NCBI GenBank assembly: GCA_964640215.1
Contig: CAZXEW010000059.1
Coordinates: 1 to 54,515, forward strand
Length of the DNA stretch: 54,515 nucleotides
Reading direction: 5' to 3'
Source of the DNA: an uncultured Gammaproteobacteria bacterium
GTDB taxonomy: Bacteria; Patescibacteriota; Microgenomatia; Daviesbacterales; UBA10151
Position numbers and translations under genes: made by a program. The notes under the pieces are model-generated. The model saw nothing but the letters and a program-made list of their open reading frames with translations, had not been told where the DNA came from and ran no database searches. Position 1 is the first letter of the stretch. Each line of letters begins with the position of its first letter. Shown in pieces: positions 1,758-52,476 of the stretch.

Positions 1758-3899
1758 ATGGAATTACAAACTAAATTGAGCGCTCTTGCCGGTGTGGGTT
1801 CGAGGATCAGACAATCTTTAGAAAAACTCGAACTTCGGACAGTCGAAGATTTAATCAATCATTTTCCCTTTCGCTACGAAGATTTTTCTAACACTTCAAG
1901 TATTGCTGAGGCTCAAATTGGGGAAAGTGTCACCGTCAAAGGACAAGTTTGGTCGATCAAGAATGTTTATACCCGAACCGGTAAAGTTTTGACTCAGGCG
2001 ATTCTAAATGATGGCACTAATTCGATCGAGCTGGTTTGGTTTAATCAATCGTGGCTGCCGAAAAATATCCATGTCGGGGAGAGCCTGCAAGTAGCTGGAA
2101 AAATTACTAAGAATGGGTCGAGGATGTCACTGGTGATGCCGAAGTGGGAGAAAATTCAGCTTACAGCAGACAGCTTACAGCAAACAGCCAGTCAAATTAC
2201 GGATTTAGAGAGCAGTGAGCGGTTAGCGGTTAGCGGTTTGCATACGGGCAGGCTGGTGGCGGTTTATCCGGAGACGTTTGGGTTGACCTCGAAATGGCTT
2301 CGGGCGAAGGTGGCGGAGGTATTGCCACGGGTGCGAGACGAGTTGGAGGAGACTTTGCCTGATCAACTGCGGGCAGATATGCCAAAATTAGCTGAGGCAA
2401 TTGAGCAAGTCCATTTTCCGACAGATTGGGATAAGTTAAATCAGGCTCGCCAGAGATTAGCTTTTGATGAGTTGTTTTTTATTCATTTAGCCACCCAAAA
2501 AACCCGCCAAGAGTGGAACCAAAAAGAGTTGGTTGATCCGCTGAAGATAAATCAATCGTCGATCGCCAAATTTATTGAAAAATTGCCGTTTAAGCTGACT
2601 AAGGCGCAGCTGAGAGTGATCGATCAGATATCGGATGATTTGAAAAAGGATCGGCCGATGAACCGGCTGATCCAGGGTGAAGTAGGCTCCGGCAAAACAG
2701 TCGTGGCGGCGGTGATTGCTTATATCGTGGCGCTGAATAAATTGCGAACATTGATCATGGCGCCGACGGAGATTTTGGCTTTGCAACATTATAGTACTTT
2801 GACTCATTTACTCGAACCGTTTGGTCTGAAAGTCGGGTTATATACAGGTCGGAAGAAAACAGTGCTTTCCGCTGACAGCTTACAGCAGACAGCCAACAAA
2901 GAAAAAGGCGGTGAGCGGTTAGCGGTGAGCAGATTGCAACCGGACGTGATTATCGGGACTCATGCACTGGTGTCAAAAAATTTCCAAACAAAGGATGTTG
3001 GTTTGATTGTGATTGATGAGCAACAAAGGTTTGGGGTCGAGCAGCGGGCTATTTTGCGCTCACTAGCTAAGATTCCGCATTTTTTAACGATGACTGCTAC
3101 TCCTATTCCGCGGACAGTGGCCTTGACTATGTATGGCGACTTGGATATATCTGTGATTGATGAGTTACCCGTGGGACGGCCAAAGATTAAGACATTTTTT
3201 GTACCAGCTAAAAAACGCCAAGCTGCCTACGAATTTATTCAAAAAAAGATTAAGGAGGGAGACCAGGCCTACATTATTACCCCTTTGATTGAGGAGTCGG
3301 AGACGCTTAAAAGTGCCAAGGCCGCCATTGTTGAGCACGCTTTTTTGCAAAAAAAGATTTTTCCAAAGCTGAAACTCGGGCTGCTTCATGGGCGGTTGAA
3401 GGGTCAGGACAAAGAGGCTGCGATTAATACTTTTAGGGATAAAGGGGTTGATATTTTGGTATCGACGTCGGTAGTCGAAGTGGGGGTTGATGTCTCGAAC
3501 GCGACGATTATGATGGTGGAGGGGGCTGAGCGGTTTGGCTTGGCCCAGTTGCATCAGTTTAGGGGGCGGGTTGGGCGAGGAACAAAAGAGTCTTTTTGTT
3601 TTTTATTTGCTGAGTCTGAGCAGTCTGAGGTGGTTAGACGGTTGAAAAGCCTGGAGCGGATTGACAACGGGTTGGAGCTGGCTGAGCTGGATCTAAAAAT
3701 CCGGGGATCAGGTGAGGTCTTCGGAACACGTCAGTCTGGTCGCTTTAATCTTAAAATTGCTTCATTGAGTGATCTGAAATTGGTCGAGCAAACCCGAAAT
3801 CAGGCACAGATTTTGCTGGCGAGCGACCCTTTACTTGACAAATACCCGCAAATTAAGGCAAAATTGGCCAGTCTGGCGGGTAACACCGCGCCAGATTAG
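1758..3899 (+). CDS. recG: ATP-dependent DNA helicase RecG
   Basis: OB/wedge domain, QGEVGSGKT, DEQQRFG, MTATPIPR, QLHQFRGRVGRG, DLKIRGSGE; ATG 1758 preferred over track start 1740 because TATAAT lies at 1746-1751. Confidence 0.97.
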   Translation: MELQTKLSALAGVGSRIRQSLEKLELRTVEDLINHFPFRYEDFSNTSSIAEAQIGESVTVKGQVWSIKNVYTRTGKVLTQAILNDGTNSIELVWFNQSWLPKNIHVGESLQVAGKITKNGSRMSLVMPKWEKIQLTADSLQQTASQITDLESSERLAVSGLHTGRLVAVYPETFGLTSKWLRAKVAEVLPRVRDELEETLPDQLRADMPKLAEAIEQVHFPTDWDKLNQARQRLAFDELFFIHLATQKTRQEWNQKELVDPLKINQSSIAKFIEKLPFKLTKAQLRVIDQISDDLKKDRPMNRLIQGEVGSGKTVVAAVIAYIVALNKLRTLIMAPTEILALQHYSTLTHLLEPFGLKVGLYTGRKKTVLSADSLQQTANKEKGGERLAVSRLQPDVIIGTHALVSKNFQTKDVGLIVIDEQQRFGVEQRAILRSLAKIPHFLTMTATPIPRTVALTMYGDLDISVIDELPVGRPKIKTFFVPAKKRQAAYEFIQKKIKEGDQAYIITPLIEESETLKSAKAAIVEHAFLQKKIFPKLKLGLLHGRLKGQDKEAAINTFRDKGVDILVSTSVVEVGVDVSNATIMMVEGAERFGLAQLHQFRGRVGRGTKESFCFLFAESEQSEVVRRLKSLERIDNGLELAELDLKIRGSGEVFGTRQSGRFNLKIASLSDLKLVEQTRNQAQILLASDPLLDKYPQIKAKLASLAGNTAPD
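2156..2240. repeat. Heptamer inverted-repeat element, in frame in recG (copy 1)
   Basis: cagctta cagcaga cagctta cagcaaa ... gcagtga gcggtta gcggtta gcggttt; encodes LTADSLQQTA...ERLAVSG. Confidence 0.85.
2869..2935. repeat. Heptamer inverted-repeat element, in frame in recG (copy 2)
   Basis: ccgctga cagctta cagcaga cagccaa ... gcggtga gcggtta gcggtga; encodes SADSLQQTA...ERLAVSR. Confidence 0.85.
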
Positions 3900-3968
3900 T
3901 TAATGGTAAATCGTAAGTCGTAGGTGGTAAGCATAACAAACCATTTACCTATTACCATTTACTACATA
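3899..3968. repeat. Heptamer inverted-repeat element between recG and rpmF
   Basis: aatggta aatcgta agtcgta ggtggta ... accattt acctatt accattt. Confidence 0.7.
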
Positions 3969-3974
3969 CCAAGC

Positions 3975-4178
3975 ATGCCTCACGAACCAAAGAAACGACA
4001 TTCTAAAGCGGCTAAACGGACCAGACGAGCCTCGATTAGCCTAAGCGCGATCAATTTATTTGATTGTCCTCATTGCGGTCAAAAAACCCTAGCTCATATG
4101 GCCTGTCGAAACTGCGGTTTCTACGGTGGCAAGCAAACAGCCTCGGCTAAGCCTGAGGTAAAAGTCACTCGAGCTTAA
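3975..4178 (+). CDS. rpmF: 50S ribosomal protein L32 (zinc-binding form)
   Basis: MPHEPKKRHSK...RR, CPHCG and CRNCGFY; ATG 3975 chosen because the track's upstream extension is repeat-derived. Confidence 0.93.
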   Translation: MPHEPKKRHSKAAKRTRRASISLSAINLFDCPHCGQKTLAHMACRNCGFYGGKQTASAKPEVKVTRA

Positions 4179-4194
4179 ATAATTCTTCCCGCCT

Positions 4195-4876: not shown

Positions 4877-5539
4877 ATGATAACCATTGACGAGAGTCTT
4901 CTTAAAAAACAGATCTATAAAACAGCTTTTACCCATCGCTCGACTTTAAACGAGGTTCGGGACGTGGTTGAGTCGAATGAACGGTTGGAATTTTTAGGGG
5001 ATGCTGTTTTATCTTTAATTATTTCAACTATTTTGTATAAACTACGGCCTTTAGATAATGAGGGTGATTTGACTAACCTGCGCTCGTATATTGTCAAGAC
5101 GACTTCTTTAGCGAAGGCTGCTAAAAAGCTGCGTTTGGGTCATTTTTTGAGGCTGTCAAAAGGCGAGGAGGTGTCGGGAGGACGAGATAATCCTCAGCTG
5201 ATGGCTAATACTTACGAAGCACTGTTGGGAGCCATCTTTCTGGACGGCGGAGTTGATGCAGTCAGAGAGTTTATCGAACAGACACTGCTGCCGTTGTTTA
5301 AAGAAGAGATCAGCAGCGGGCCTCCTAAAGATGCCAAATCCTATCTGCAGGAAGTCGCCCAGACTAAAACTAAGCAGTCACCTCAATACCGAATTCTAAA
5401 AACGGAAGGGCCGGATCATGCCCGCAAATTTATGGTCGGCGTCTATATTGATGGTAGGTTATTCGGCAAAGGCGAGGGTTTTTCAAAACAGTTGGCCGAG
5501 GAATCAGCAGCTGAGGAGGCTTTAAAAGAGTTGTCCTGA
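4877..5539 (+). CDS. rnc: Ribonuclease III
   Basis: NERLEFLGDAVL signature, ANTYEALLGAIFLD, C-terminal dsRBD (GPDHARKF, G.G.SK..AE..AA). Confidence 0.97.
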   Translation: MITIDESLLKKQIYKTAFTHRSTLNEVRDVVESNERLEFLGDAVLSLIISTILYKLRPLDNEGDLTNLRSYIVKTTSLAKAAKKLRLGHFLRLSKGEEVSGGRDNPQLMANTYEALLGAIFLDGGVDAVREFIEQTLLPLFKEEISSGPPKDAKSYLQEVAQTKTKQSPQYRILKTEGPDHARKFMVGVYIDGRLFGKGEGFSKQLAEESAAEEALKELS

Positions 5540-6045: not shown

Positions 6046-6341
6046 GAGATCTGGTCGAATATATTGCTCGGCAAATCGTTAGTGACCCGGATGGTGTCAA
6101 AGTCGAGGAGAAACAGCAAGACGGTCTTAATATTTTAGAGTTAACAGTCTCCCCGGTCGACATGGGTATAGTCATTGGCAAGAAAGGCCAGACAATTAAG
6201 GCGATCCGTAAACTACTGGCAGTCAGGGCGATGGCTGAAAATGTTCGGGTAAACTTACAACTGATCGATCCTGAAGGCGCCCACGGCACACCGCTCACTG
6301 CAGACCGCCAAACAGATGAAGCGGAAAGCGTTAAGCCGTAA
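6042..6341 (+). CDS. khpA: KH-domain RNA-binding protein (KhpA/YlqC family)
   Basis: DMGIVIGKKGQTIKAIR (GxxG loop); located between rpsP and trmD. Confidence 0.9.
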   Translation: MRDLVEYIARQIVSDPDGVKVEEKQQDGLNILELTVSPVDMGIVIGKKGQTIKAIRKLLAVRAMAENVRVNLQLIDPEGAHGTPLTADRQTDEAESVKP

Positions 6342-6351
6342 GCGGTAAGCC
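6291..6351. repeat. Heptamer inverted-repeat element forming the KhpA C-terminal tail
   Basis: ccgctca ctgcaga ccgccaa ... gcggaaa gcgttaa gccgtaa gcggtaa. Confidence 0.75.
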
Positions 6352-9401: not shown

Positions 9402-9482
9402 GCTAGAGTCTAGAATCTAGATGCTAGAAAGCTATAACAAGCCTCTTTTATATTAACCTAGCCACTAGTATCTAGCAACTAG
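9402..9482. repeat. Heptamer (nCTAGnn) inverted-repeat element
   Basis: gctagag tctagaa tctagat gctagaa ... cctagcc actagta tctagca actag. Confidence 0.7.
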
Positions 9483-11315
9483 TTACTTGTTTTGGTAGGT
9501 GCCTTTGATAACCGAGAAGTTGCCTGACGGACCGGAGGTGAAAAACATCTGAGCCAGTCCGGAATCATAGGTAACGATTGCATTATTATCCAGGACTATT
9601 TTCCAACCACTAACTTCATGCAAGGACGCGTTATTGTGAAGAAAGATGATGCCGTTGTTGGCATAAAAGATGCTGGTAGTGCTGCCATTGTCGGCATCAA
9701 TGGCGGTGATGCCATTTGTCCGCGAATCAAAGTTACTTAAACCCAACAGATAACTGCCGCTGGTACCAGAGCCTTTTAACTGACCATTATTGTGAAGGGT
9801 TATTTTTCCATCAACGACGATAATGCCAGAGGCGGCACCGTAGGTGGATTTTAGTTTAAGTTGAGCACCGTTGTCTAAGGATAGGTCTCCGGTAATCCAG
9901 ATCGGGTCAGTCATGGTAGCGATACAGTTATTAGTCAAACTGATGTTGCCGACATATTTGCCCGCGTTTAAAGTTGCCTGACAGCTGCTAATATTACCAG
10001 TATAAGTGCCGATCCCAGAGGCCTGATCTTTCCAAGCCTGAATGTTAGCATCAGAAACGGGTAGAACTTTAGGAGTGGGGTCAGCTGAGCCAGGATGGTA
10101 GCTACCAGCGGTGACACCACTGATTAATTGGTAATAAGCTCCACCGGTGATATTAATGTTATTTATGGTATTGGCATAGGCGTTACCACCAATTGAAGCT
10201 CCGTTTGATCCCTGGATAAAGGTGGCCACGCCACCCATAAAGGTTTTAAAACCCAAATCACCGGCAATGGTAGTCCAGACCGGACTGCTGGCTTGCCAAT
10301 TAGGCGACCAGGCACTGCCCCCTCTGGTATAACCTTGGGTGGTATCCTGCGACCAGGTCCAGTAGTAATTAACGTTAGCGGAGGTATCGATGAGGATCCA
10401 GTAAGGAGTTTCAGCGGTCAAGGAAGGGGTGCTGGAAAAAGTCACATCAACAAATCCGTATTGATTGGTGACTAAGTTGGCCGACAGGGTGCCAGATGTT
10501 AAAACGTTGTTTTTATTTGGTTTACCACTGGAATCGCCCAAGATCCGGACAGTCGCATCTGGAGGAGTACCGACTTTTTTAAGCTTTAGTGACACTTTAT
10601 TAATGACAGCCGTGGCGACCGGTTTAAAGCCTTGGGCAACATCAAGTTGGCTATTAGCAGTTTTGCCAAATATAAAATCGGTGCAGTTTGGCACTGTACA
10701 ATCGCTTTGCTGGTCAGCAGCGGGTTGAACCCCGCCGGCAACATAGGCGTCGCCGGTGATCTGGGAGTTGTTACTCATATTAATACTACTGTTGGAATAA
10801 ATCGAGCCAACGATTCGAGCGTTATTATTTAGCTGAATTCCACCTTCACCAACCTGGACTCCGTAAACAAAGGAGACACCGGCACCCTTGACCACTTGGA
10901 TCTGAATTGCCCTTTTAACGATTGGTTTGGTTTTGTTAGGCAAATAGCCGGTAGCGGTGATAATTTTATTGGAAGAATCGATAGAAGTGATAGCAACTGA
11001 GTAAGAGCCCGATCCGAAGTTGGTTTCAACCTCACCGGTATAGACACCAGCGGTAGTATTTAAAGAGGCAACGGCTTTATCAATTCCGGCCTCGGCCAAA
11101 TTAATGGCTTGGACGTCGCTAACAGAATAGCGTGAACTCTGATTGTAGGTCAGAGCATTACCGATAATAATGACGGTAGTGACTACCACAAGCGTTAGGA
11201 CAATGATTGCCAGAATAAACATTTGGCCTCCTTGGTTATTAGTTTTTAGTTCGTAGTTAGTAGTATTTTGATATTTACTAAGAACTCTGAACCAAGAACT
11301 AAGTACTTTATTCAT
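9483..11315 (-). CDS. Large PilX/PilK-like minor pilin, putative tip adhesin
   Basis: QGGQMFILAII pilin-like helix, AINLAEAGI PilX motif, a jelly-roll-like central domain (AQGFKP...YWILID) and Asn/Gly-rich beta-helix-like repeats. Confidence 0.7.
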   Translation of the reverse strand: MNKVLSSWFRVLSKYQNTTNYELKTNNQGGQMFILAIIVLTLVVVTTVIIIGNALTYNQSSRYSVSDVQAINLAEAGIDKAVASLNTTAGVYTGEVETNFGSGSYSVAITSIDSSNKIITATGYLPNKTKPIVKRAIQIQVVKGAGVSFVYGVQVGEGGIQLNNNARIVGSIYSNSSINMSNNSQITGDAYVAGGVQPAADQQSDCTVPNCTDFIFGKTANSQLDVAQGFKPVATAVINKVSLKLKKVGTPPDATVRILGDSSGKPNKNNVLTSGTLSANLVTNQYGFVDVTFSSTPSLTAETPYWILIDTSANVNYYWTWSQDTTQGYTRGGSAWSPNWQASSPVWTTIAGDLGFKTFMGGVATFIQGSNGASIGGNAYANTINNINITGGAYYQLISGVTAGSYHPGSADPTPKVLPVSDANIQAWKDQASGIGTYTGNISSCQATLNAGKYVGNISLTNNCIATMTDPIWITGDLSLDNGAQLKLKSTYGAASGIIVVDGKITLHNNGQLKGSGTSGSYLLGLSNFDSRTNGITAIDADNGSTTSIFYANNGIIFLHNNASLHEVSGWKIVLDNNAIVTYDSGLAQMFFTSGPSGNFSVIKGTYQNK

Positions 11316-12316: not shown

Positions 12317-13243
12317 TTAACAGGCCGCATTGGCATTTTTACAAATTGGTCCGCTGGAAAAAATCGAGAAATCAAAATAGAATGGAGTGACATTTTTTTG
12401 AACAAATAGATGGAGCTTGCGCTGGGTTTGGCCGGAATAGCCTTTTGAAGTATAGATGACAATTTGGGCTGGTAATACTGCATTACCGATTGGGGCGATG
12501 GCGATTTTTTGGGGGACGTTTGATGTGTCGTAGAGAATTCTGACGCGGACTAAAATTGGGATTTCGCCAACCGGTACAATATTGACGGTGTATTGGCAAT
12601 AAAAAATACTGTTTGAAGGTTGGTCGGACCTTAGATTGTAAGTCAGTTTTGTTTTGGCGCCGTTACAACTTGCGGCAGAATAGGTAAAGTTATTATTCCC
12701 ACGGTTGGAAGAGTCTAAGTAAGTGCGGTAGGCTTGATAAGAACCACTGGCTGTTCTAGTAACCACGGCCACTTCTACACCTGGCAGGCTATCGGCATCC
12801 TGATTTACATTGCCAAATAGTATATCGAAATTGGTTCGGTTATCAGGGGGGAGGCTATAAAATGGTTCAAGGGTATCGGGATGTGCTAACCAAAATTGAG
12901 CAAAGGCAGTCTTATCGATTTCAGGATACTCTAAGCCTTTATTTAGGTCTGAGGAGATCGGGACAAGACCACTCGAGATGACATCTGCACTGGATTGGTT
13001 ACCTAGTTCAGTGCTTGTTACGAACGGAACAGGGGATGCACCGGCGGACGAGTCGAAAGCGGTGTTGGTACCGATGGCCTTTTCAATACCTGCTTCGGCA
13101 GCCGAAAAAGCTCGGGTGGATTGGTCAATCTTGGTGGAGGTGGCGACATCGGTTAGGGATCGTTGAGTGATGGCTAAACCGATGGTTAGTGAAACTAGGG
13201 TAGCTAGTAAAATAATTAGTAGTGCTTGGCCTGTTTGATTCAT
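12317..13243 (-). CDS. Minor pilin (PilX-like)
   Basis: QTG|QALLIILL and RAFSAAEAGIE motifs. Confidence 0.8.
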   Translation of the reverse strand: MNQTGQALLIILLATLVSLTIGLAITQRSLTDVATSTKIDQSTRAFSAAEAGIEKAIGTNTAFDSSAGASPVPFVTSTELGNQSSADVISSGLVPISSDLNKGLEYPEIDKTAFAQFWLAHPDTLEPFYSLPPDNRTNFDILFGNVNQDADSLPGVEVAVVTRTASGSYQAYRTYLDSSNRGNNNFTYSAASCNGAKTKLTYNLRSDQPSNSIFYCQYTVNIVPVGEIPILVRVRILYDTSNVPQKIAIAPIGNAVLPAQIVIYTSKGYSGQTQRKLHLFVQKNVTPFYFDFSIFSSGPICKNANAAC

Positions 13244-13947
13244 TTTCGGACTTGGATAGTTGTTTCAAAAACCTGACCACTGGTGTCAGTGCCGATGGTT
13301 TCTTCGGAACGGTTGTTAGTGTTGATGCGTTGAGATAGTGCAAATGAGATTGAGACTGAGTCGCTCGAACCAGCACTGCGGTTGATCATAAAGAAATTGC
13401 CAGATCCTTGGAGGCTACTTGGTAATCTGACTGCTACCACCCCGGAGGTAGGATCGGCATCGATTAGGTTGGCTGGGTTGTTTAAGGTAAGATCGCTGCC
13501 GCAGTGGCTGGGAGCATCTCTGGAGTCGATAATGTTGGTGGGGTGATCTGACTGGATATTGCCATTGGCGGAACTATCGGCTGAGGTAATTCGGAATCTA
13601 GTGTAATTAATGGTGTCTTGAACCTTGTAAGAGAGGATCATGGTATCACCCCAGGTGACTTTGTTATTTTCAGGATCAGTGGTGAGGGCGCCTTTATTTC
13701 CGACGCAGACGACTGATTCAGCTCCGCGAATAGATTGATCCATATAAGTTAAAGCGGCTGAGCCGTTTCTTTTTATGTTACCTAGGAGTTGAGTTTTGGT
13801 GTTTGATTGGAAGGTCCGAGACAGGAGTGAGGCGATAATCAGACCGATAATTGAAATGATTGAGACCGAGATGAGGGCTTCAATCAGGGTGAAACCGTTT
13901 TTAGTTCGTAGTTCGTAGTTCGTAGTTCGTAGTGGGGGATGGATCAT
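13240..13947 (-). CDS. Minor pilin with heptamer-repeat-encoded leader
   Basis: KNG|FTLIEALISVSI; ATG 13947 overlaps the upstream stop (ATGA); leader LRTTNYELRT comes from (TAGTTCG)4 on the + strand at 13902-13933. Confidence 0.85.
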   Translation of the reverse strand: MIHPPLRTTNYELRTKNGFTLIEALISVSIISIIGLIIASLLSRTFQSNTKTQLLGNIKRNGSAALTYMDQSIRGAESVVCVGNKGALTTDPENNKVTWGDTMILSYKVQDTINYTRFRITSADSSANGNIQSDHPTNIIDSRDAPSHCGSDLTLNNPANLIDADPTSGVVAVRLPSSLQGSGNFFMINRSAGSSDSVSISFALSQRINTNNRSEETIGTDTSGQVFETTIQVRK

Positions 13948-14456
13948 ATGTCTTTTGAAATTATGGTGACGAGTTGCGATTGGTGTGTTCCGGAGTAATC
14001 GGTCCAATTGACTTGGGCGCTAACTTTGACTTTATCAGGCACTGATGCCGGGCCCAAAGCGATAGTGCGGGTAAAGCGACCATTGGCCAAGCTCTGGGCT
14101 GGGCCGTTGGTAAGACTACACTGTGTAGCATTATAGCTGATAACAAAAATAGGGGCGATGAAATTCACGTTCCAGACTAAATTTCCGGTTGAATTAGCTG
14201 GATCGGCTCGCCAATAGTAAATCACTGATCCAGTATCAGTGACCGGACAATTGCGGTCTTTAATGACTCGGACTTGCTCAAGACCTTCCTGGGCTAGTTT
14301 AGTGGCCTGAATCTGATTTTGAGCGTACTGACTATTTCTTAAGCCTATGATGGTGGTCACGGCGATGGCAGCGATGACAACTATAGCTAGTCCTGAGGCG
14401 ATAGTAACTTCTAACAGAGCCTGCCCTTGAGGCTCAAAACTGGTCTTATTTGGCAT
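13944..14456 (-). CDS. Minor pilin
   Basis: PQG|QALLEVTIA, ATKLAQEGLEQVR. Confidence 0.8.
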   Translation of the reverse strand: MPNKTSFEPQGQALLEVTIASGLAIVVIAAIAVTTIIGLRNSQYAQNQIQATKLAQEGLEQVRVIKDRNCPVTDTGSVIYYWRADPANSTGNLVWNVNFIAPIFVISYNATQCSLTNGPAQSLANGRFTRTIALGPASVPDKVKVSAQVNWTDYSGTHQSQLVTIISKDI

Positions 14457-15030
14457 TGATTGATCCTCCTTGGTTGATAGTGATGGTTTTTATGATGCCC
14501 GGCAGTTGGGTATCAGTGAGAGTAAAAGAGATGGTGTTACTACTTCCGCACGAGAAGTAAGTACTCTTGCGGGTAAAAGTGACGAACCAAGGCAAGGGAC
14601 ACCCGCTTGGTGCTTGTAAGGCGAGGTTACTGACTAGGTTGGTAGTTGTTTTAATGTTGGCTGTTGTCATTTGTGTTGGTACTGAGGCGGGGTCTTGGCA
14701 GATAGTGCCGATTGAATAATTATCGGCGTAGATTAAAACTTCCCAGTTTAGGATGAGATTATTGGCGCAAGGTGCGGTGAGTTGTGTGCTTAGGGGCGTT
14801 GGAGCGGGCTGGACGTTGGCCTGGGCATAAGATTGGGCCTGGCGCAGAGTAGAGGCTAATTTGTCGAGCTCGTTATTTAAAAGTTGAGTCTCGCTAAAAT
14901 TTCGTAAAGTCGGAATCCCCACCGCCGTGACTATGGCTAGGATCGACATACTGACCAAAATCTCGATCAGGGTGAAACCGTTTTTAGTCGGTAGTAGGTA
15001 GTCGGTAGTAGGTAGTCGGAGCAGCGGCAT
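14446..15030 (-). CDS. Minor pilin (FimT/PulH-like) with repeat-encoded leader
   Basis: KNG|FTLIEILVSMSI, LRQAQSYAQA; leader LPTTDYLLPT comes from repeats at 14985-15019. Confidence 0.85.
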   Translation of the reverse strand: MPLLRLPTTDYLLPTKNGFTLIEILVSMSILAIVTAVGIPTLRNFSETQLLNNELDKLASTLRQAQSYAQANVQPAPTPLSTQLTAPCANNLILNWEVLIYADNYSIGTICQDPASVPTQMTTANIKTTTNLVSNLALQAPSGCPLPWFVTFTRKSTYFSCGSSNTISFTLTDTQLPGIIKTITINQGGSINAK

Positions 15031-15074
15031 TGTATTAAAAGTAGCACAAATTGGCTCGGGAGTCACCTAAATTA

Positions 15075-15563
15075 TTAAGGGCCGGTGATTGCAAAATTGT
15101 AAAAGGCGGCAGCTGGCGGACAGACTACTGGAATATTGGGAGAGGCTTGATTTTCCAGCTTGGCGTAGAGGCAATAATTGGAACAGATGCTCGTTGGGCT
15201 ATTAGTACAATCCGGAGGACCTACAGGCAGTGTTTTATAATCATAATTGGAGCTGTCGACCGGGTCTTTGGGGATGGTATTAAGATAAGTTTTAGTGGCC
15301 GGGACTGGGACTGGTGCCGGCCGACCTGTTAAGTTGGTGATGGGCAAACCGGCTGCGGGGAGGGGCTGCGTAGGGTAGAAGGATTGGTCGGCGTTGTAAT
15401 GTTCCAAGGCGTTTTGGATGGTTCGTAAATCAGATTGGCGCTGGGTATTGCGGGAGCTGCGCTGAGTAGCAGTATAGGCCGAGAGCGCAAAGCCCGAGAG
15501 CAGGGCAATGATACTAATGGCGACTAATAATTCGATCAGACTAAAGGCTTGTGAGGAGTTCAT
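15075..15563 (-). CDS. Pilin/pseudopilin (PulG-like)
   Basis: SQA|FSLIELLVAISI, RNTQRQSDLRTIQNALEHY...YP, IPKDP, YCLYAKLEN. Confidence 0.85.
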   Translation of the reverse strand: MNSSQAFSLIELLVAISIIALLSGFALSAYTATQRSSRNTQRQSDLRTIQNALEHYNADQSFYPTQPLPAAGLPITNLTGRPAPVPVPATKTYLNTIPKDPVDSSNYDYKTLPVGPPDCTNSPTSICSNYCLYAKLENQASPNIPVVCPPAAAFYNFAITGP

Positions 15564-15581
15564 ATAATAAAATATACCATA

Positions 15582-19543: not shown

Positions 19544-19555
19544 AACGTATGCTTT

Positions 19556-19620
19556 CCGCTTACAGCTGACTGCTTACTGCCAGAAATGTGGCGGTTAGCG
19601 GTGAGCGGTTTGCTGTCAGC
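19556..19620. repeat. Heptamer inverted-repeat element between pilB and pilT
   Basis: ccgctta cagctga ctgctta ... gcggtta gcggtga gcggttt; same family as the recG inserts. Confidence 0.85.
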
Positions 19621-35000: not shown

Positions 35001-36268
35001 ATGCAGAGATTGCCCGGACCAAATTGATGTCCAGATTTAAATTGAGCGAGCTGCAGGCGACGGCGATTTTAGATATGCAGCTGCGGAAGTTAGCTGCTCT
35101 GGAGCGAAAAAGAATAGAAGATGAATTGAAGATGATGCAGGAGCTGATTGCCTATCTGGTAGATTTATTAGCGCACCCCGACAAGATGCTAAAGGTGATT
35201 AAAGATGAGTTAATCAAGGTTCGGGACCGATACGCCGATGACCGACGAACCAGGGTATATAAACAAAAAATCGGCGAGTTCTCGGAGGAGGATTTGGTTG
35301 CGGATGAGACAATGATAGTGACAGTGACTCGGGGTGGATATGTCAAGCGCCAGTCGCCGATGTCATTTAGAACCCAAAACCGCGGCGGAAAAGGGGTATC
35401 TGGTATTACGACTAAGGACGAAGATGCAGTTAGTCATATTTTTTATACCCAAACTTTGGATAATTTGTTATTTTTTACCGATAAAGGGCGAGTTTTCCAG
35501 ATTAAGGTCTGGGAGATTCCGGAAGCCTCGAGGACAGCCAAGGGTCAGGCGATTGTTAATTTAATAAATGTTGAGCCGAGCGAAAAGATGACGGCGATTT
35601 TGACGACTAAAGCCAAAGATAAAACAAAGTTTTTGTTTATGTGTACCCGCAAGGGTAGTGTCAAGAAGACTCCGGTTGAAGAGTATGCTAATATCCGTAA
35701 AAATGGCTTGATCTCGATCAAGCTCGACGCCGGGGACCAGTTGTGCTGGGTAGTGCCGACACTAGGAAATCAAGATGTTATCTTGGTGACTCGAGATGGC
35801 CAGTCGATTCGCTTTGCCGAAACCCAGGTCCGTGGGACCCATCGGGATACTTCCGGAGTCAGAGGCATTTCGCTGACTAAAAGTGATGAATTGGTGTCGA
35901 TGAATCTAGTCCAAGAGATTAACGAAGATGTTTTGGTGGTGATGGAAAATGGTTTGGGTAAGAAAACTAAAATATCGGCCTGGAAGCGGCAAAGCCGGGG
36001 CGGATCCGGCATAAAAGCGGCTCAGATTACTGATAAAACCGGTAAAATTGTGACCGCCGAAGTCATTAATGCTGAATTTGATACTTTGGTGATGACCTCA
36101 AATAAGGGTCAGCTGATTAAGTTGAGTTTGAAGGATGTGCCGACTTTGCAACGACAGACCCAAGGTGTAATCTTAATGAGGGTCCGCTCCGGCGAGGTAG
36201 TCGCCGCCGCCACGGTGGTGTCGGCACAAGATAAGGTGGATGGAGTGGTTGTTAGTGATGTGTTATGA
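32084..36268 (+). CDS. gyrA: DNA gyrase subunit A containing an intein
   Basis: [27 protein letters not shown] (catalytic Tyr), GPDFPTG, GyrA-box QNRGGKG, beta-pinwheel repeats. Confidence 0.97.
32432..34000 (+). mobile_element. 523-aa intein with HNH-type endonuclease, in GyrA
   Basis: GNFG|[10 protein letters not shown]...; block B TPDHRF; C-terminal VYDLTI...HNFAL..GIFVHN|S; removal restores GNFGSVDGD; internal [14 protein letters not shown]...H..IH. Confidence 0.95.
34286..34393. repeat. Heptamer inverted-repeat arms bounding an in-frame GyrA insertion
   Basis: ccgctga cggcaga ccgcaaa ccgccac ... gcggtaa gccggta gcggaaa gcgg. Confidence 0.7.
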
Positions 36269-36325
36269 GAGATGATTGATGAGATAAACCCATTTCACAT
36301 TACCCATTACCCATTACTTATTACA
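36250..36325. repeat. Heptamer element across the gyrA stop
   Basis: gttatga gagatga ttgatga ... cattacc cattacc cattact tattac. Confidence 0.6.
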
Positions 36326-36328
36326 TTT

Positions 36329-38750: not shown

Positions 38751-38760
38751 AAGGCTACGC

Positions 38761-38837
38761 CTAGTTCTTAGTTATTAGTTCATTGTTCTTAGTAATCGCA
38801 TTTGTCTACGAACTACCAACTACGAACTCCAAACTAC
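38761..38837. repeat. Heptamer inverted-repeat element (TAGTTCT / CTACGAA arms)
   Basis: ctagttcttagttattagttcatt ... ctacgaactaccaactacgaactccaaactac. Confidence 0.75.
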
Positions 38838-39550
38838 AGGATGCTGAGGCCAATTATTCCGAGTAGGACAAATAGGCCGCCGGCGATGCCTAAAATAAGG
38901 GTATTGTCAAAGGAGCCGGAAGGGGATAGGACCGTCACCGGGGGAGGGACGACGACGACAGCGCTGTCGCTCGAGCCTGGGGCGCCAACTCCGATTGCAC
39001 CGGTGCCTCCGGCACCACTACAACCGCTGCCGGTACCAACGGTGTAATTTCCATCTGAGACTGAGGAGAGCAGGTCGGCCAGGGTACCACGTTCCGCGAC
39101 ATTCGAGTCAGTGGTTTTTTGTTTATCATTGGGATCAAAATCAAATTTAACAGTCAACGGACCGGCGGCGTTGTTATTGACTGTAAAGTTGACTGTAGCA
39201 AGTGTTCCTTGTCCTGAGTAGGCTTGAGCAACGGAGGCAATACCGGAAACAGTGACTTTGCCGTTGAGCGCATCAACTACATTTGAATAATCAGGATAGA
39301 TGGTGCCGTTTTGAATGGTTTGGACAGGGGTTAAAATAGTCGGGTTAAAAAGTAAGATGGCATCCGTTCCGTCAGTTTGGGCGCCGCTGGTGTCGAGGTT
39401 AATCTTAAGTTGGACACTACAGCCTTTGTTAAAGGTGCCTGTGTTTGGTGAAAGCGATAATGTAGCAGCTAGAGCACCACCGGGGAATATCAATGGTATA
39501 GCGCTGGCGACCAGGCCGATCAGGAGATGTTTAATGTTGGGCAGTTTCAT
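38834..39550 (-). CDS. Secreted cohesin-like protein with C-terminal membrane anchor
   Basis: Signal peptide; ATLSLSP...INLDT..AQTDGTDAIL.FNP...G.GTLATVNF...DSNV pattern; Gly/Pro linker; C-terminal TM. Confidence 0.75.
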   Translation of the reverse strand: MKLPNIKHLLIGLVASAIPLIFPGGALAATLSLSPNTGTFNKGCSVQLKINLDTSGAQTDGTDAILLFNPTILTPVQTIQNGTIYPDYSNVVDALNGKVTVSGIASVAQAYSGQGTLATVNFTVNNNAAGPLTVKFDFDPNDKQKTTDSNVAERGTLADLLSSVSDGNYTVGTGSGCSGAGGTGAIGVGAPGSSDSAVVVVPPPVTVLSPSGSFDNTLILGIAGGLFVLLGIIGLSIL

Positions 39551-39553
39551 AGA

Positions 39554-40180
39554 TTAGTTGATATTTATTTTAACACTGTTACCTAATCCAAGGATATCAT
39601 TTCCAGTTGCTAGTTCTATCATATTCGAATCAGTGGTGCTATTCAAACTGTAATCAACCGAAATGGTAGTGGTGCCTTTAGCGGCAGCCGTTAAATTAAG
39701 CGTCCCGAAGATGCCGGCGCCATTAAAACCAACCTGCTCTACAGAGCTGATACCAGATACCCTGATTAGTTTATTTGTCGGATCGGCTTGGTTGGTTGGG
39801 TATTCGCTCATGATTTTGCTGGTGGTTAGGGCCGGGGTCGCGGCGGTTAAAAATTTCGGATCGTATTTGATGACTAGATCAACCCCCTGGATAATATGGC
39901 CGCCGGTGATAATTCTGACCGGAATTGAGATCGTTTCACCCACCCGGTATGTTTTATTTTGATCAACCAGGACAATCGTACCTGATGAGGCTGGCTGGAG
40001 CGGTAGAGGTTGATTAGCTGATCTCTGCGATCCTATTCCGAAAACCCGGACCAGCTGAAAAACCACCAGGCCTACCAGCAGCAAAATAACAATTCTGGGT
40101 AACCAAGTTCGGAGGAGACTGGACTTGGGGTTCTGGTTATCGGAAAGAGGATTTTGATAGATGAGCGGGTTAATGTCCAT
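39554..40180 (-). CDS. N-terminally anchored cohesin-like protein
   Basis: TM then VGETISIPVRI...GVDLVIKYDP.FL...G.GIFGTLNL...TTDSN...DIL. Confidence 0.75.
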   Translation of the reverse strand: MDINPLIYQNPLSDNQNPKSSLLRTWLPRIVILLLVGLVVFQLVRVFGIGSQRSANQPLPLQPASSGTIVLVDQNKTYRVGETISIPVRIITGGHIIQGVDLVIKYDPKFLTAATPALTTSKIMSEYPTNQADPTNKLIRVSGISSVEQVGFNGAGIFGTLNLTAAAKGTTTISVDYSLNSTTDSNMIELATGNDILGLGNSVKININ

Positions 40181-40219
40181 ATCTTTAGCTTATATTATTG
40201 TGGTCGGTCATATCAATTT

Positions 40220-49748: not shown

Positions 49749-50486
49749 ATGGATCAAAATAGTACAAATTCAGATCTCCATCGTTTAGCAATAAACGCGG
49801 CTTTGAATTGTCAATGGGAAGAGGCTGTCCGGTTAAATCAACAGATTAACGAAGCTGATCCGATCAATATCACGACTTTGAATAGGTTGGCCAGGGCACT
49901 GTGCGAACTGGGAAAATATAAAGAAGCCAAGAAAATTTACCATGATGTTTTAAGCCTTGATCCTTACAATTCTATAGCTCAAAAAAATCTTAAAAAAATC
50001 CAGGCCTGTAAAGATAACGATCCGACACGAATAGCCGGGACAGTCTCGATGCGCAGTTTTTCGTCGACGATGTTTCTAAAAGAGCCGGGTATTACCAAAT
50101 TAGTTAATCTGATTAAATTGGCCGAACCCCAGAAATTAATGAGTATCTCAGCCGGAACGATGGTTGAATTGGTACCTAAAACTAAAAATATCACAGTGGT
50201 TGATCAAGATGACCATTATCTTGGGGTATTGCCAGATGATACGGCTTTTTTGCTTCTTAAACTGATACATGGCGGTAATAAATACCAGGCGATTATTCGA
50301 TCTGTTAAGTCAAATGCGGTGACGATCATGATCCGGGAGACTTTCCGGGCTAAACGATTTAAGAATCAGCCCTCGTTTTTGGATGAGACTAATATTGTCT
50401 CGATGCCATCGGATAATCTGTCACTTATCGGCGATGTCTCAGAATCTGATCGCAGTGATGATGAGGCTGACGAATCTTCAAACTAA
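49749..50486 (+). CDS. Tetratricopeptide-repeat protein with beta-rich C-terminal domain
   Basis: NRLARALCELGKYKEAKKIY..VLSLDPYN..A..NL; TTGCAA-N18-TATACT upstream. Confidence 0.75.
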   Translation: MDQNSTNSDLHRLAINAALNCQWEEAVRLNQQINEADPINITTLNRLARALCELGKYKEAKKIYHDVLSLDPYNSIAQKNLKKIQACKDNDPTRIAGTVSMRSFSSTMFLKEPGITKLVNLIKLAEPQKLMSISAGTMVELVPKTKNITVVDQDDHYLGVLPDDTAFLLLKLIHGGNKYQAIIRSVKSNAVTIMIRETFRAKRFKNQPSFLDETNIVSMPSDNLSLIGDVSESDRSDDEADESSN

Positions 50487-51172
50487 ATTCTAATTAAATT
50501 GGTTAAATTTTCAATGGGGGTGTTGAGTGCTTCATTTGGAAGGAGGCGCCGGTTCTGGTAATCAAAAACGGTGTTTTTGGAGGGGTTAGCCGTGATTGGC
50601 ATCAGAGAGAGTTTGGTGTTGAGTTGGCTAATTAGGATGTTTTTAAGCTCGCTCAGGCGTTTTAAATCGGCAGACTTAATGATAGCCCTAAGGTTAATCA
50701 AGGGTTTGTCAGGGGCACGGGATTGAATGGTCAGAGTGACTTGCCAAAAAAGTTGGTCGCCAGGAGCAAGCGCTAAATTGGCCAAAATAAGGGGTGGTTG
50801 ATCCAGGGTGATTTGATCGGGTGAATGTAGACTCAAGGCTGAATCGCGCTCCGGGTTAAGTTGAAATATATAATCTTCGATCTCAAGTAATTTTAGTAGC
50901 GGAAAATGACGAGAGATATCCTGGGGGGCGTAAAAAACCAGAGCCTTGTCCCCTCCTCTAGTTAGAACTTCAAAAGACAGGGTCAGATCGCGCAGATGCG
51001 GGTTAATAGCCAGTTCAGAAAAGAATTGATTATCGAGAAGGGAGGGATTTTGGACGATAAAAGTGCTAAAAACGAAATTGGTCAGATTTTCTTGACTACC
51101 CCGGCTGAGGATGATGACCCCGTAAGCAAAGGCGATGAATATGACGGCGGCGGCCAGTATAATCGATAGCAT
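50483..51172 (-). CDS. Hypothetical protein with N-terminal TM
   Basis: 229-aa ORF, hydrophobic N-terminus; no recognised motif. Confidence 0.65.
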   Translation of the reverse strand: MLSIILAAAVIFIAFAYGVIILSRGSQENLTNFVFSTFIVQNPSLLDNQFFSELAINPHLRDLTLSFEVLTRGGDKALVFYAPQDISRHFPLLKLLEIEDYIFQLNPERDSALSLHSPDQITLDQPPLILANLALAPGDQLFWQVTLTIQSRAPDKPLINLRAIIKSADLKRLSELKNILISQLNTKLSLMPITANPSKNTVFDYQNRRLLPNEALNTPIENLTNLIRI

Positions 51173-51205
51173 CTGATGTGTATATTACGGAAATCATGGG
51201 ATAAG

Positions 51206-52252
51206 TCAATTGTGCTGGTAATTTTGGAGGTAGTAGTCCTCACCCAGAACGACGATTAACTGGGCCCTCGAGGTGTCGAGTTTGGGGTCTTGAGGAGTGC
51301 AGCCTTTGGGAAAACAGGCGGGCGAAAAGATGCCAGTAAGTCTGTTAAAAGTATAGCTTTTAAGAAGGCTTTGTTTGTCCCCGTTCATAACTATTATCGA
51401 TGAATTGATAAGGGAGCTTTCGGTGCTGGAGGTGGTGATAACGTTTCCGCCAAGGTTAGTAATGATGCGGGAGGCATCCTGGGCCAGGCCCGGATGGTCG
51501 GTGGCGTTGTAAATAGCTATCGGCAAAGCTTCCCGGGTGATGCCCTCATCGATTAATTTTTCCCGAACGAACAAATCCAGGCGGATATTATCAACCCCCA
51601 GGACTCGGGTTGAGTCCGGCAGTAGAATGCTTCGGGTAATATTGGTCTCTGAGAGGTCAAGGTCGACAATTTTGTCACTCCGGGCCTGGGAGATGGCAAA
51701 GACCAGGCTTAACTCCTCGAGTGGAGTCAGGTCGGTTTTGATTTGATTGAGTAAGAAAAGTCCAGTAAATAGATTGGAGTGCATTTGGTTGACAATTTGT
51801 TGGGAGGTTTGAGGGGAGTTGACCAGGATGAAGCGGTCAATCGGTTGACCCAACAGTGAGGCGATGGAATCTTTCAGCAGGGAGGCTCCCCGGCCGGTTT
51901 TTTCTTCCTCGCCAAGAGAGTAAATGCTGCCAATCGGCCAGGAACCGTAACCGCGGGGTACATTGATATAACTTTCGCCGGGGATAGCGATGACGGTAAA
52001 TTTTTTGTCGGCCGGGTTGTAGTTGATGACAGACAAGTCAGCGGCTTTCATCACCAAATTGATCGGAGTTGTACCATTCCAGGAACGAAGCTCTGAGGCG
52101 TTGACAAACTGAGGGGTGACAGGTTGGCCAAGACCCATGATTAGGCGAATAATTTTACCGAGGATGATTAAGATGACAATGAAGGCTAGGGCGTAGAAGG
52201 CCAGGCTAAGCTTTGGGCTGCCAGGAGCGGTGGTTTTCTTTTTTTTAGACAT
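51206..52252 (-). CDS. LytR/CpsA/Psr-like (LCP) cell-envelope protein with LytR C-terminal domain
   Basis: Basic tail plus TM; IAIPGESYINVP; C-terminal IYNAT..PGLA......I..LG and IVVLGEDY. Confidence 0.7.
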   Translation of the reverse strand: MSKKKKTTAPGSPKLSLAFYALAFIVILIILGKIIRLIMGLGQPVTPQFVNASELRSWNGTTPINLVMKAADLSVINYNPADKKFTVIAIPGESYINVPRGYGSWPIGSIYSLGEEEKTGRGASLLKDSIASLLGQPIDRFILVNSPQTSQQIVNQMHSNLFTGLFLLNQIKTDLTPLEELSLVFAISQARSDKIVDLDLSETNITRSILLPDSTRVLGVDNIRLDLFVREKLIDEGITREALPIAIYNATDHPGLAQDASRIITNLGGNVITTSSTESSLINSSIIVMNGDKQSLLKSYTFNRLTGIFSPACFPKGCTPQDPKLDTSRAQLIVVLGEDYYLQNYQHN

Positions 52253-52267
52253 AGGGGCAGGTGGGGT

Positions 52268-52393
52268 TCAGAATTTGTCTTTCCCTTTAGTGATGATTTT
52301 GGGTGGCACAAAAACCGGTGCCTGGGTGATGGCCTTGCCGGCACCTTTTTTTTTCTTCTTTTTTTCGCCAGAAAAGTAGGATCCAATACTCAT
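52268..52393 (-). CDS. Small Lys-rich protein (41 aa, MSIGSYFSGEKKKKKKGAGKAITQAPVFVPPKIITKGKDKF)
   Basis: Translated by hand; ends 15 nt before the LCP start; below track cutoff. Confidence 0.5.
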   Translation of the reverse strand: MSIGSYFSGEKKKKKKGAGKAITQAPVFVPPKIITKGKDKF

Positions 52394-52396
52394 AAG

Positions 52397-52476
52397 AGTT
52401 ATCAGCTGTCAGCTATCAGTCATCAGATGAGTTCAGATTATTAGGTCTGAAAACTGAGAACTGTTTGCTGAAAACT
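52397..52476. repeat. Heptamer inverted-repeat element (TCAG / CTGA arms)
   Basis: tatcagc tgtcagc tatcagt catcaga ... tctgaaa actgaga actgttt gctgaaa. Confidence 0.75.

What the first reader, a model, noticed from the sequence alone, without database searches (positions are those of the whole stretch)
3899..52476. At least five other heptamer families use the same inverted-array design at gene boundaries
Seen: arrays with different 7-mers but the same layout (a tandem arm, a short loop, a complementary tandem arm) occur at 3899-3968, 9402-9482, 36250-36325, 38761-38837, 48782-48850 and 52397-52476. Single arms occur at 13902-13933, 14985-15019 and 49594-49645. They cluster at stops and starts. 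Inference: the period of 7 and the hairpin, not the sequence, are what is conserved, which suggests a generating mechanism. From memory, heptamer arrays flank four-helix-bundle (TIGR02436-like) genes in other bacteria; no such gene is in this window.
Basis: partly seen in the sequence, partly recalled or inferred. Interest (0 to 1): 0.65.

Follow-up and report, generated by a model that had tools for sequence, protein, structure and literature searches.

The report
Gene-less heptamer-armed hairpin repeats between genes
The 7-base repeat hairpins between genes of this tiny uncultured (Daviesbacteria-like) bacterium are real dispersed repeat elements, and they look like empty copies of a cassette that elsewhere in the genome carries a small four-helix-bundle gene of the kind found in ribosomal-RNA intervening sequences.

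Summary

- **Period 7 is special.** My scan finds 45 strict arrays at period 7, against 0-2 at periods 6 and 8 and none in shuffles.
- **The hairpin layout is not chance.** 45 of 139 arrays have a complementary partner arm within 90 nt, against 0-6 in controls.
- **The hairpins are dispersed repeats of about 70-80 nt with sharp ends.** One window copy is 94% identical, loop included, to a copy on another contig. The TAGTT family has at least 10 copies.
- **They are insertions.** They sit in cistron junctions that are tight overlaps in relatives.

- The genome has four such genes outside the window and no reverse transcriptase.
- Three of the four genes lie exactly between inverted heptamer arrays.
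- Across 80 genomes of the class, gene copy number tracks array counts (rho 0.73). Arrays occur in 2 of 26 gene-less genomes and 41 of 54 gene-bearing ones.
- Protein similarity tracks arm sequence.

My best reading is that these are gene-less members of an intervening-sequence-like element class. How they spread and what the protein does are not shown. Two single arms lie in frame inside prepilin leader peptides.

The parts
3899..3968 (+). Inverted heptamer hairpin (arms GGTAAnT / ATTTACC) between the recG stop (3897-3899) and the rpmF (L32) ATG (3975)
   Evidence: Sequence. MFE -18.6 kcal/mol, z -3.3. Flanking genes identified. No other copy in the genome.
9402..9482 (-). Inverted heptamer hairpin with a palindromic CTAG core (CTAGnnn), between the stop of ORF 9483-11315 and the pilM ATG (9391)
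   Evidence: Sequence. MFE -24.5 kcal/mol on the minus strand. The arm ends 5 nt before the ATG. One arm has short matches on C44 and C27.
11235..11302 (-).
   Evidence: row w11228rc of alignment A1.
13902..13933 (-). Single arm (TAGTTCG x4.6; the sense strand reads CTACGAA) translated in frame inside a prepilin leader peptide (MIHPPLRTTNYELRTKN|GFTLIE)
   Evidence: (N_methyl motif).
14985..15019 (-). Single arm (TAGTCGG/TAGTAGG) translated in frame inside a prepilin leader peptide (MPLLRLPTTDYLLPTKN|GFTLIE)
36250..36325 (+). Inverted heptamer hairpin (nnnnATG / ACCCATT). Arm 1 overlaps the last codons and the stop of gyrA (36266-36268). Arm 2 ends next to the ATG at 36330.
   Evidence: MFE -13.5 kcal/mol, z -2.5. 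Position relative to the ATG.
38761..38837 (-). TAGTT-family hairpin between the stop of the cohesin-domain gene (38834-38836, inside the arm) and the integrase ATG (38750). It has a 94% identical copy at C39 6898-6965.
   Evidence: z -3.5. Homology and sharp boundaries.
48782..48850 (-). TAGTT-family hairpin at the yebC-ruvC junction. yebC reads through arm 1 and the loop and stops at 48810-48812 in arm 2. The ruvC ATG (48779) is 2 nt after the arm.
   Evidence: In most relatives this junction is a TGA/ATG overlap.
49594..49645 (-). Single arm (TAGTTAG/TAGTGAG x5.6-7) ending 2 nt upstream of the yebC ATG, downstream of a promoter-like site (49699-49670)
   Evidence: consensus match only. A 91% match to C33 11613-11657.
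52397..52476 (-). Inverted hairpin of the CTGA family (TATCAGC / CTGAAAA) in a 380-nt spacer. A second copy at C55 17046-17153 has conserved arms and a longer loop.
   Evidence: MFE -27.1 kcal/mol, z -5.0. Second copy. Promoter-like site just upstream on the minus strand (consensus only).
19550..19616 (-). Example of the main GCGGTNA/GCTNACC family with the same design (subject of the companion finding). Others at 2157-2238, 2908-2930 and 6319-6350.
4901..5533 (+). RNase III gene (rnc), the enzyme that excises the related rRNA intervening sequences in other bacteria
   Evidence: TIGR02191, 242 bits.

Best explanation
The arrays are copies of small dispersed hairpin elements. Each has two arms of about 4.5 heptamer units (five 4-nt cores) in inverted orientation around a short loop.

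**Shown:**
- They form sequence families with sharp ends.
- They sit as insertions in cistron junctions that are tight overlaps in relatives.
- The same architecture brackets three of the genome's four TIGR02436 (S23p / 23S-rRNA-IVS protein, Avd-like) genes, with the arms next to the ATG and the stop codon.
- Across the class, the gene and the arrays occur together.
- Gene similarity tracks arm sequence.
- Gene plus arms appear at unrelated sites in genomes of different families.

**Inferred:**
- The window's hairpins are the gene-less (empty or non-autonomous) form of an intervening-sequence-like element class.
- Whole modules are copied to new junctions, and the arms are then reshaped by slippage in 7-nt steps.
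- Copies survive only where they do no harm. This genome shows no Shine-Dalgarno signal, so an arm next to an ATG would be tolerated. TAG-rich arms carry stop codons in many or all reading frames, so those copies can only persist between genes. Stop-free arms persist in cleaved prepilin leaders or in permissive loops of proteins.
- In the transcript the arms pair into an interrupted stem. That stem may be processed by RNase III or bound by the pentameric four-helix-bundle protein.

Neither the enzyme that copies the modules nor the role of the protein is known.
For: - **Period-7 excess:**
- **Inverted pairing:** 45 against 0-6 in controls.
- **Folds:**
- **Sharp-ended dispersed copies:** 94% identity over 68 nt including the loop, with unrelated flanks. 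Families.
- **Filled versus empty yebC-ruvC junction** across genera.
- **TIGR02436 genes:** four in the genome, three between inverted arrays. Arm duplex energies are -26 to -44 kcal/mol, z -5 to -7.8.
- **Other genomes of the class:** 17 of 26 loci have a period-7 array on a flank, against 3 for periods 6 or 8.
- **Co-occurrence in 80 genomes:** rho 0.73; 2 of 26 against 41 of 54; Fisher p 5e-9. Within families f3, f4, f17 and f19, the genome without the gene also has no arrays.
- **Direct sampling:** 0-4 against 2-30 period-7 arrays per 80 kb.
- **Protein identity against arm distance:** rho -0.38, permutation p < 0.0005.
- **Cassette-only homology** between genomes of three families.
- **No Shine-Dalgarno enrichment**.
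- **rnc present**.
- **Copy number:** mode at 4.5 units with a sharp drop from 5.0 upward.
- **Solved relatives** 2GSC and 2RLD each have 5 chains in the entry. S23p is described as a homopentamer, and heptamers lie in the stem of the Coxiella intervening sequence (PMC4990558).
Against: - No transposase, no target-site duplication and no recent identical copies were seen. The best pair is 94% identical.
- Several hairpin families in the window (GGTAAAT, CTAG core, AATGGGT, CTGA) have no cognate gene in this 99.6% complete genome.
- The co-occurrence is not phylogenetically corrected. It could instead mean that the gene colonises pre-existing hairpins, or that a third lineage trait drives both.
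- Covariation in the arms is weak: 2 of 18 pairs. Pairing therefore cannot be separated from sequence conservation.
- Sense and antisense folding energies give no consistent answer on whether RNA or DNA is the relevant form.
- No expression or read data could be examined.
Confidence: 0.6

Rival explanations
1. Neutral by-products of replication slippage: the general excess of heptanucleotide simple-sequence repeats reported for prokaryotes. The hairpins and the neighbourhood of TIGR02436 genes would be incidental.
For: Heptanucleotide repeats are reported as the commonest long simple-sequence-repeat class in many prokaryotes, with polymerase slippage proposed as the cause (Mrazek 2007, as summarised in PMC4679880). 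Units vary within arms, as slippage plus mutation would produce.
Against: - Slippage alone does not make complementary partner arms (45 against 0-6).
- It does not make sharp-ended copies that include the loop at unrelated sites.
- It does not give a copy-number mode of 4.5 with a sharp cut-off.
- It does not explain a near-absence of arrays in the 26 genomes of the same class that lack the gene.
Confidence: 0.12
2. Host regulatory elements: binding sites for a global regulator, or translation leaders or enhancers next to start codons. This was proposed for TAACTGA repeats in Beggiatoaceae and for the 4x and 5x heptanucleotide elements of Geobacter. On this reading they are not selfish elements.
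For: About 30 arrays end within 0-10 nt of an ATG. The genome lacks a Shine-Dalgarno signal. TAACTGA-type arrays are present (C3 16314-16338). For the literature see PMC4679880, PMC2700814 and the Nostoc preprint.
Against: - Closeness to start codons follows from insertion into junctions of 0-26 nt.
- The same elements also lie inside ORFs and between convergent genes.
- The neighbouring genes share no evident function (recG, rpmF, gyrA, pilM, yebC, ruvC, an integrase).
- Occupancy of the same junction varies between genera.
Confidence: 0.15
3. Phase-variation switches. This applies to the single arms inside prepilin leaders: gain or loss of one 7-nt unit would shift the frame and switch a pilin on or off.
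For: 6 of 18 prepilin-like genes carry an in-frame heptamer array between the start codon and the GFTLIE cleavage motif, and a seventh has one just upstream of its ATG. The unit length is not a multiple of 3. Pilins are classic phase-variable surface genes. Heptamer copy number varies between Coxiella strains (PMC4990558).
Against: - All six arrays are currently in frame.
- Three paralogous pilins on C3 keep diverged arrays that still encode the same SYQLS leader, which points to long-term stability rather than rapid switching.
- The cleaved leader may simply be a permissive site.
- Most arrays in the genome lie outside reading frames.
- Read data could not be examined.
Confidence: 0.1
4. Intrinsic transcription terminators or 3'-end stabilising hairpins.
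For: They are hairpins placed after stop codons.
Against: - The terminator scan flags none of them.
- The stems are AT-rich and interrupted, and no U-tract follows them.
- Many lie inside apparent operons directly before the next ATG.
- There is no Rfam match.
Confidence: 0.03

Closest known systems
ORF-bearing intervening sequences (IVS) of 23S rRNA genes, for example the Coxiella burnetii IVS encoding S23p (Warrier et al. 2016, PMC4990558); also Leptospira, Xanthomonas and Brucella
   Same: The same protein family (TIGR02436/PF05635) lies in the loop of a stem made by terminal inverted repeats. The Coxiella element has tandem heptamers (GACAGAT) next to the start codon, and their copy number varies between strains. 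It is excised by RNase III and has been proposed to be selfish or mobile. One relative here (G077) has a heptamer hairpin inside its 23S rRNA gene.
   Different: The window's elements lie between or inside protein-coding genes, not in rRNA. They carry no ORF. Their stems are interrupted every 7 nt rather than near-perfect. Many different heptamer families coexist in one genome.
TAACTGA and other heptamer direct repeats of Beggiatoaceae, Cyanobacteria (STRR-type) and Bacteroidetes (MacGregor 2015, PMC4679880; Nostoc preprint 10.1101/2022.06.06.494920)
   Same: Tandem heptamers of 2-6 units lie directly upstream of start codons in lineages with few Shine-Dalgarno sites. Several heptamer families occur per genome. 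Indels come in 7-nt steps between strains. TAACTGA arrays occur in this genome too.
   Different: Those reports describe direct repeats (169 direct sets against one indirect). They do not describe paired inverted arms, dispersed hairpin modules or a link to a gene family.
Geobacter metallireducens multicopy elements with four or five tandem heptanucleotide repeats (Aklujkar et al. 2009, PMC2700814)
   Same: They have four to five heptamer units per element and dozens of copies, both between and within genes. One class is drawn as a strand-switching (hairpin) pair.
   Different: They were interpreted as regulator binding sites or regulatory RNAs. No cargo gene or mobility was discussed. They are GC-rich and come from a distant phylum.
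REP/BIME, REPIN and MITE-type short palindromic repeats
   Same: They are short hairpin-forming dispersed repeats at gene junctions of compact genomes, with sharp ends and many diverged copies.
   Different: The arms here are internally periodic (7 nt). No RAYT or transposase partner was identified for them, and no target-site duplication was seen. The candidate partner is a non-catalytic-looking four-helix-bundle protein.

Membership tests
Heptanucleotide tandem repeats (long simple-sequence repeats / STRR type) | Tandem head-to-tail units of 7 nt, more frequent than neighbouring periods | tested here: met
   period 7 outnumbers periods 6 and 8 by 4-fold (TRF) to more than 20-fold (strict scan), with 0 in shuffles.
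Heptanucleotide tandem repeats (long simple-sequence repeats / STRR type) | Length polymorphism in 7-nt steps between strains or reads | not testable with these tools
The only foreign contig found breaks inside the array.
IVS-type element (TIGR02436/S23p gene inside a stem of inverted repeats) | Terminal inverted repeats that form a long stem | tested here: met
   window hairpins; gene-bearing cassettes; genome-wide enrichment.
IVS-type element (TIGR02436/S23p gene inside a stem of inverted repeats) | Four-helix-bundle ORF in the loop | tested here: not met
   The window hairpins have loops of 6-35 nt and no ORF, and there is no TIGR02436 match on C59. The feature is met at C4, C80 and C66 elsewhere in the genome.
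IVS-type element (TIGR02436/S23p gene inside a stem of inverted repeats) | Located in a 23S rRNA helix and excised by RNase III | tested here: not met
   All window copies lie between or inside protein-coding genes. Excision cannot be tested here. The rnc gene is present.
MITE/REP-like non-autonomous mobile element | Multiple dispersed copies with sharp, shared boundaries in unrelated contexts | tested here: met
MITE/REP-like non-autonomous mobile element | Target-site duplication and a cognate transposase | tested here: not met
   No duplication was seen at the aligned boundaries, by eye only. No transposase was linked to the hairpins, and RVT_1 is absent. The earlier-noted RAYT of this genome goes with another repeat and was not tested here.
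Intrinsic terminator | GC-rich stem followed by a U-tract | tested here: not met
   One search lists none at the hairpin coordinates in 36000-54515. The sequences of all six loci show no T-run after the second arm.
Phase-variable simple-sequence-repeat contingency locus | Repeat with a unit length not divisible by 3 inside the 5' coding region of a surface gene | tested here: met
   Six prepilin leaders.
Phase-variable simple-sequence-repeat contingency locus | On/off frame variants in a population | not testable with these tools

The most novel reading that the evidence does not exclude
TIGR02436/S23p four-helix-bundle pentamers and inverted heptamer arrays of five cores per arm form one genetic system. 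It would be a transposase-less selfish element whose protein recognises its own periodic arms, one subunit per heptamer. The system would have colonised rRNA helices (as the classical intervening sequences), cistron junctions and permissive coding loops. Its gene-less copies would account for much of the unexplained heptanucleotide-repeat excess in bacteria such as CPR, cyanobacteria and Bacteroidetes.
Probability: 0.3. Interest if true: 0.85.

Novelty: new variant of a known kind. Interest (0 to 1): 0.66.

Why it matters
Heptanucleotide repeats have been noted for decades in cyanobacteria (STRR), Beggiatoaceae and Geobacter, and in rRNA intervening sequences. No mechanism or partner protein has been established for them. 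The TIGR02436/S23p family is widespread and of unknown function.

This genome and its class give quantitative support for linking the two:
- presence and absence of the gene and the arrays go together;
- protein similarity tracks arm sequence;
- gene-plus-arm cassettes lie at unrelated sites in different genomes;
- gene-less copies have sharp ends.

If the link holds, an uncharacterised protein family gains a testable nucleic-acid target. A class of compact elements that live inside operons and even inside genes of ultra-small genomes becomes open to experiment.

There is also a practical side. The arrays confuse start-codon calling: ORFs run through the stop-free arms. They can also fragment assemblies.

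Tried and rejected
- **Other assemblies of the same strain**. Only one Logan contig was found, and it breaks inside the perfect array. The other five look-ups found nothing, and one call had a frame error.
- **Arm polarity relative to gene direction**. I dropped this after realising that the reverse complement of a hairpin has the same polarity. A G/T-rich 5' arm and an A/C-rich 3' arm is therefore a family property, not an orientation.
- **Sense versus antisense folding energies**. The results are mixed. The main GCGGTNA family even folds better on the antisense strand, so there is no verdict on RNA versus DNA.
- **Covariation in the TAGTT family**. Pairs are mostly invariant and only 2 of 18 are compensatory, so this is uninformative.
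- **Rfam**: no match.
- **Terminator scan**: none at the hairpins.
- **Reverse transcriptase**: absent, so a diversity-generating retroelement or telomerase-like generator is unlikely.
- **Pilin-leader arrays in relative G077**. None were found among 15 sampled loci, so this feature is not general.
- **TIGR02436 genes next to the longest arrays** (C15 4539-4597, C14 13920-13961). They are not adjacent to any such gene.
- **Literature.** No paper linking heptamer repeats with Patescibacteria was found.

Full report
**Source.** The window is contig C59 of a 1.13-Mb, 80-contig, 44% GC genome. The closest named relatives of its YebC are Candidatus Daviesbacteria MAGs. The gene content fits a CPR/Microgenomates bacterium: type IV pilus genes, an intein-bearing gyrA and cohesin-domain proteins.

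- TRF over the genome gives 184 rows at period 7, against 33 at period 6 and 44 at period 8.
- A strict scan (at least 18 of 21 positions equal to the base 7 nt on) finds 45 arrays at period 7, 2 at period 6, 0 at period 8, and none in Markov-3 shuffles.
- At a looser threshold there are 139 arrays with 78 different canonical units.
- 55% of them touch the 9% of the genome that my rough ORF map leaves non-coding.
- Inverted pairing is far above chance. 45 arrays have a partner within 90 nt that is complementary at 16 or more of 24 positions, against 0, 6 and 4 for reversed, complemented and direct controls. This gives 36 distinct hairpins.
- The six loci of the finding fold into interrupted stems of 4-6 bp helices separated by 2x2 or 3x3 internal loops every 7 nt. 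MFE is -13 to -27 kcal/mol and z is -1.5 to -5.

**Anatomy.**
- In same-direction gene pairs, the stop codon of the upstream gene lies in or next to the first arm, and the second arm ends 0-10 nt before the next ATG. Examples are recG to rpmF, gyrA to the next ORF, the cohesin gene to the integrase, and yebC to ruvC.
- yebC even reads through arm 1 and the loop. This adds about 12 residues beyond the usual C-terminus.
- Copy number per arm has a mode at 4.5 units, that is five 4-nt cores and four spacers in about 32 nt. It drops sharply from 5.0 upward: 54 rows at 4.5, 8 at 5.0 and 2 at 5.5. Five gene-rich relatives show the same mode, with a longer tail.
- TAG-type families read 5'-(TAGTnnn)n ... 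(nnnACTA)n-3' on both strands. The 5' arm therefore tends to put stop codons in all three frames. 13 of 27 between-gene hairpins have no open frame on either strand, whereas all 9 hairpins that lie inside ORFs keep at least one open frame.
- I first read the arm polarity as an orientation relative to transcription. I withdrew this because the reverse complement of a hairpin has the same polarity.

**The hairpins are dispersed repeat elements, not only a shared design.**
- Window 38762-38829 is 94% identical to C39 6898-6965, loop included. Homology starts and stops at the arm ends, and the flanks are unrelated.
- 52397-52480 has a second copy at C55 17046-17153 with conserved arms and a longer loop.
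- All-against-all BLAST groups the hairpins into families whose alignments are confined to the 68-90-nt module.
- The TAGTT family has at least 10 members, including three in the window: 11235-11302, 38761-38837 and 48782-48850.

**They are insertions.** In 17 relatives, the yebC-ruvC junction is mostly a TGA/ATG overlap or a spacer of at most 26 nt. It holds heptamer arrays with different units in this genome, in G012 (97 nt) and in G002 (56 nt). I saw no target-site duplication.

**The TIGR02436 link.**
I found no RVT_1 reverse transcriptase.
- Three of the four genes lie exactly between inverted heptamer arrays that touch the ATG and the stop. The arm duplexes have energies of -26 to -44 kcal/mol and z of -5 to -7.8.
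- Their arms belong to heptamer families that also occur as gene-less hairpins:
  - GCTNACC/GGTNAGC on C4;
  - TAAAGAT on C80, compare the hairpin at C17 6644-6706;
  - GGTTAGT on C66, close to the TAGTT family.
- In 80 other genomes of the class, 54 carry the gene, with up to 18 copies in less than 1 Mb.
- Of 26 loci analysed, 17 have a period-7 array on a flank (3 for period 6 or 8). 14 have flanks complementary at 16 or more of 21 positions, and each locus uses its own heptamer.
- The second arm of a cassette sits next to the ATG of the next host gene, just as the gene-less hairpins do.

**Co-occurrence.**
- I counted arrays of four TAGT-, TGAT-, CTGA- or AGTC-core heptamers in the same 80 genomes. 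Only 2 of 26 genomes without the gene have any, against 41 of 54 with it (Fisher p 5e-9). Spearman rho with gene copy number is 0.73.
- In four families (f3, f4, f17, f19) the sampled genome without the gene also has no arrays, while its sister genomes have both.
- Direct sampling of 80 kb from five gene-less and five gene-rich genomes gave 0-4 against 2-30 period-7 arrays. Some gene-rich genomes favour periods 6, 8 or 9.
- These tests are not phylogenetically corrected.

**Gene and arms travel or evolve together.**
- Over 21 loci, protein identity falls as heptamer distance between the arms rises. Mean identity is 65% for identical units and 36-42% at distance 3-4 (rho -0.38, permutation p < 0.0005).
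- The AAGTATT cassette occurs in genomes of three different families. Homology is confined to the cassette, with no flank similarity within 1.5 kb.

**Context that makes the insertions tolerable.**
- The genome shows no Shine-Dalgarno enrichment upstream of genes (14% against 14% background). My start calls are crude.
- RNase III is encoded in the window.
- The hairpins are not intrinsic terminators and match no Rfam family.

**The single arms.** The arms at 13902-13933 and 14985-15019 are translated in frame within prepilin leader peptides of 17 residues. Genome-wide, 6 of 18 prepilin-like genes carry such an array, and their leaders are 15-20 residues long, against mostly 13 or fewer in the others. 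This could be a phase-variation switch. However, three paralogues keep diverged arrays that encode the same leader motif, so a permissive cleaved leader is at least as likely. The arm at 49594-49645 ends 2 nt before the yebC ATG, downstream of a promoter-like match.

**Comparison with the literature.**
- The Coxiella IVS is a 428-nt element in 23S rRNA with an S23p ORF, a 28-bp terminal stem and tandem GACAGAT heptamers whose number differs between strains. It is excised by RNase III, and S23p is described as a homopentameric toroid (PMC4990558).
- The closest solved relatives of the C4 protein, 2GSC and 2RLD, each have five chains in the entry.
- Heptamer direct repeats next to start codons are described for Beggiatoaceae, cyanobacteria and Bacteroidetes (PMC4679880) and for Nostoc.
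- Elements with 4x and 5x heptanucleotide repeats are described for Geobacter (PMC2700814).
- The S23p family is known in rRNA insertions of CPR bacteria (PMC11270868).
- I found no paper that links heptamer hairpins outside rRNA to this gene family, or that reports them in Patescibacteria.
- Earlier notes of this scan reach a similar reading in other genomes. I read them only after my, and they supplied two of the literature pointers.

**Verdict.** The most likely identity is gene-less members of an IVS-like, heptamer-armed element class associated with TIGR02436 genes (confidence 0.6). The copying mechanism, the role of the protein and the RNA-versus-DNA question remain open. Read-level tests could not be run.

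Noticed in passing
window 32084-36268: gyrA is 1394 aa and carries an intein (Intein_splicing domain at residues 128-639).
   Followed up: no
window 52538-52580; also C31 22793-22917, C67 14912-15012, C17 9794-9848, C30 73463-73516: A separate family of 21-nt tandem repeats (about GGGAATGACAAGAGGGATGAA, up to 6 copies) is scattered over the genome. The window copy lies 60 nt from the 52397 hairpin.
   Followed up: no
whole genome (G000): There is no Shine-Dalgarno enrichment upstream of 818 long ORFs (14% against 14% background). The upstream regions are A/T-rich. Start calls were crude.
   Followed up: partly
L187 (G077:C5:40231-40855): A gene-less heptamer hairpin (TAGTTnn / nnAACTA arms) sits inside the 5' part of a 23S rRNA gene of a relative. 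This is an rRNA intervening sequence of the same design.
   Followed up: no
C3 about 15029-16930 and window 13902-15019: Six of 18 prepilin-like genes have a heptamer array translated in frame in the leader peptide. Three tandem paralogues on C3 share the encoded motif SYQLS.
   Followed up: partly
L134 (G034), L141 (G039); sampled regions of G037, G020 and G034: Some TIGR02436 cassettes have 8-nt repeat arms. Some relatives are richer in period-6, -8 or -9 arrays than in period 7, so the preferred period is lineage-specific.
   Followed up: partly
C3 16314-16338: A perfect (TAACTGA)n array is present, the same heptamer described in Beggiatoaceae, cyanobacteria and Bacteroidetes.
   Followed up: no
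window 3924-4178, 13240-14007, 14446-15066: Longest-ORF calls run through stop-free arms and overextend gene starts. rpmF probably starts at 3975, and the pilins at 13948 and 15030.
   Followed up: partly
C33 15143-15349: The fourth TIGR02436 match is the N-terminal part of a longer 177-aa ORF next to a tRNA gene. It has no heptamer arms.
   Followed up: no
window 27977-28046: A 21-nt unit repeated 3.3 times (93% matches) overlaps the end of ORF 26677-27966 and the spacer that follows.
   Followed up: no
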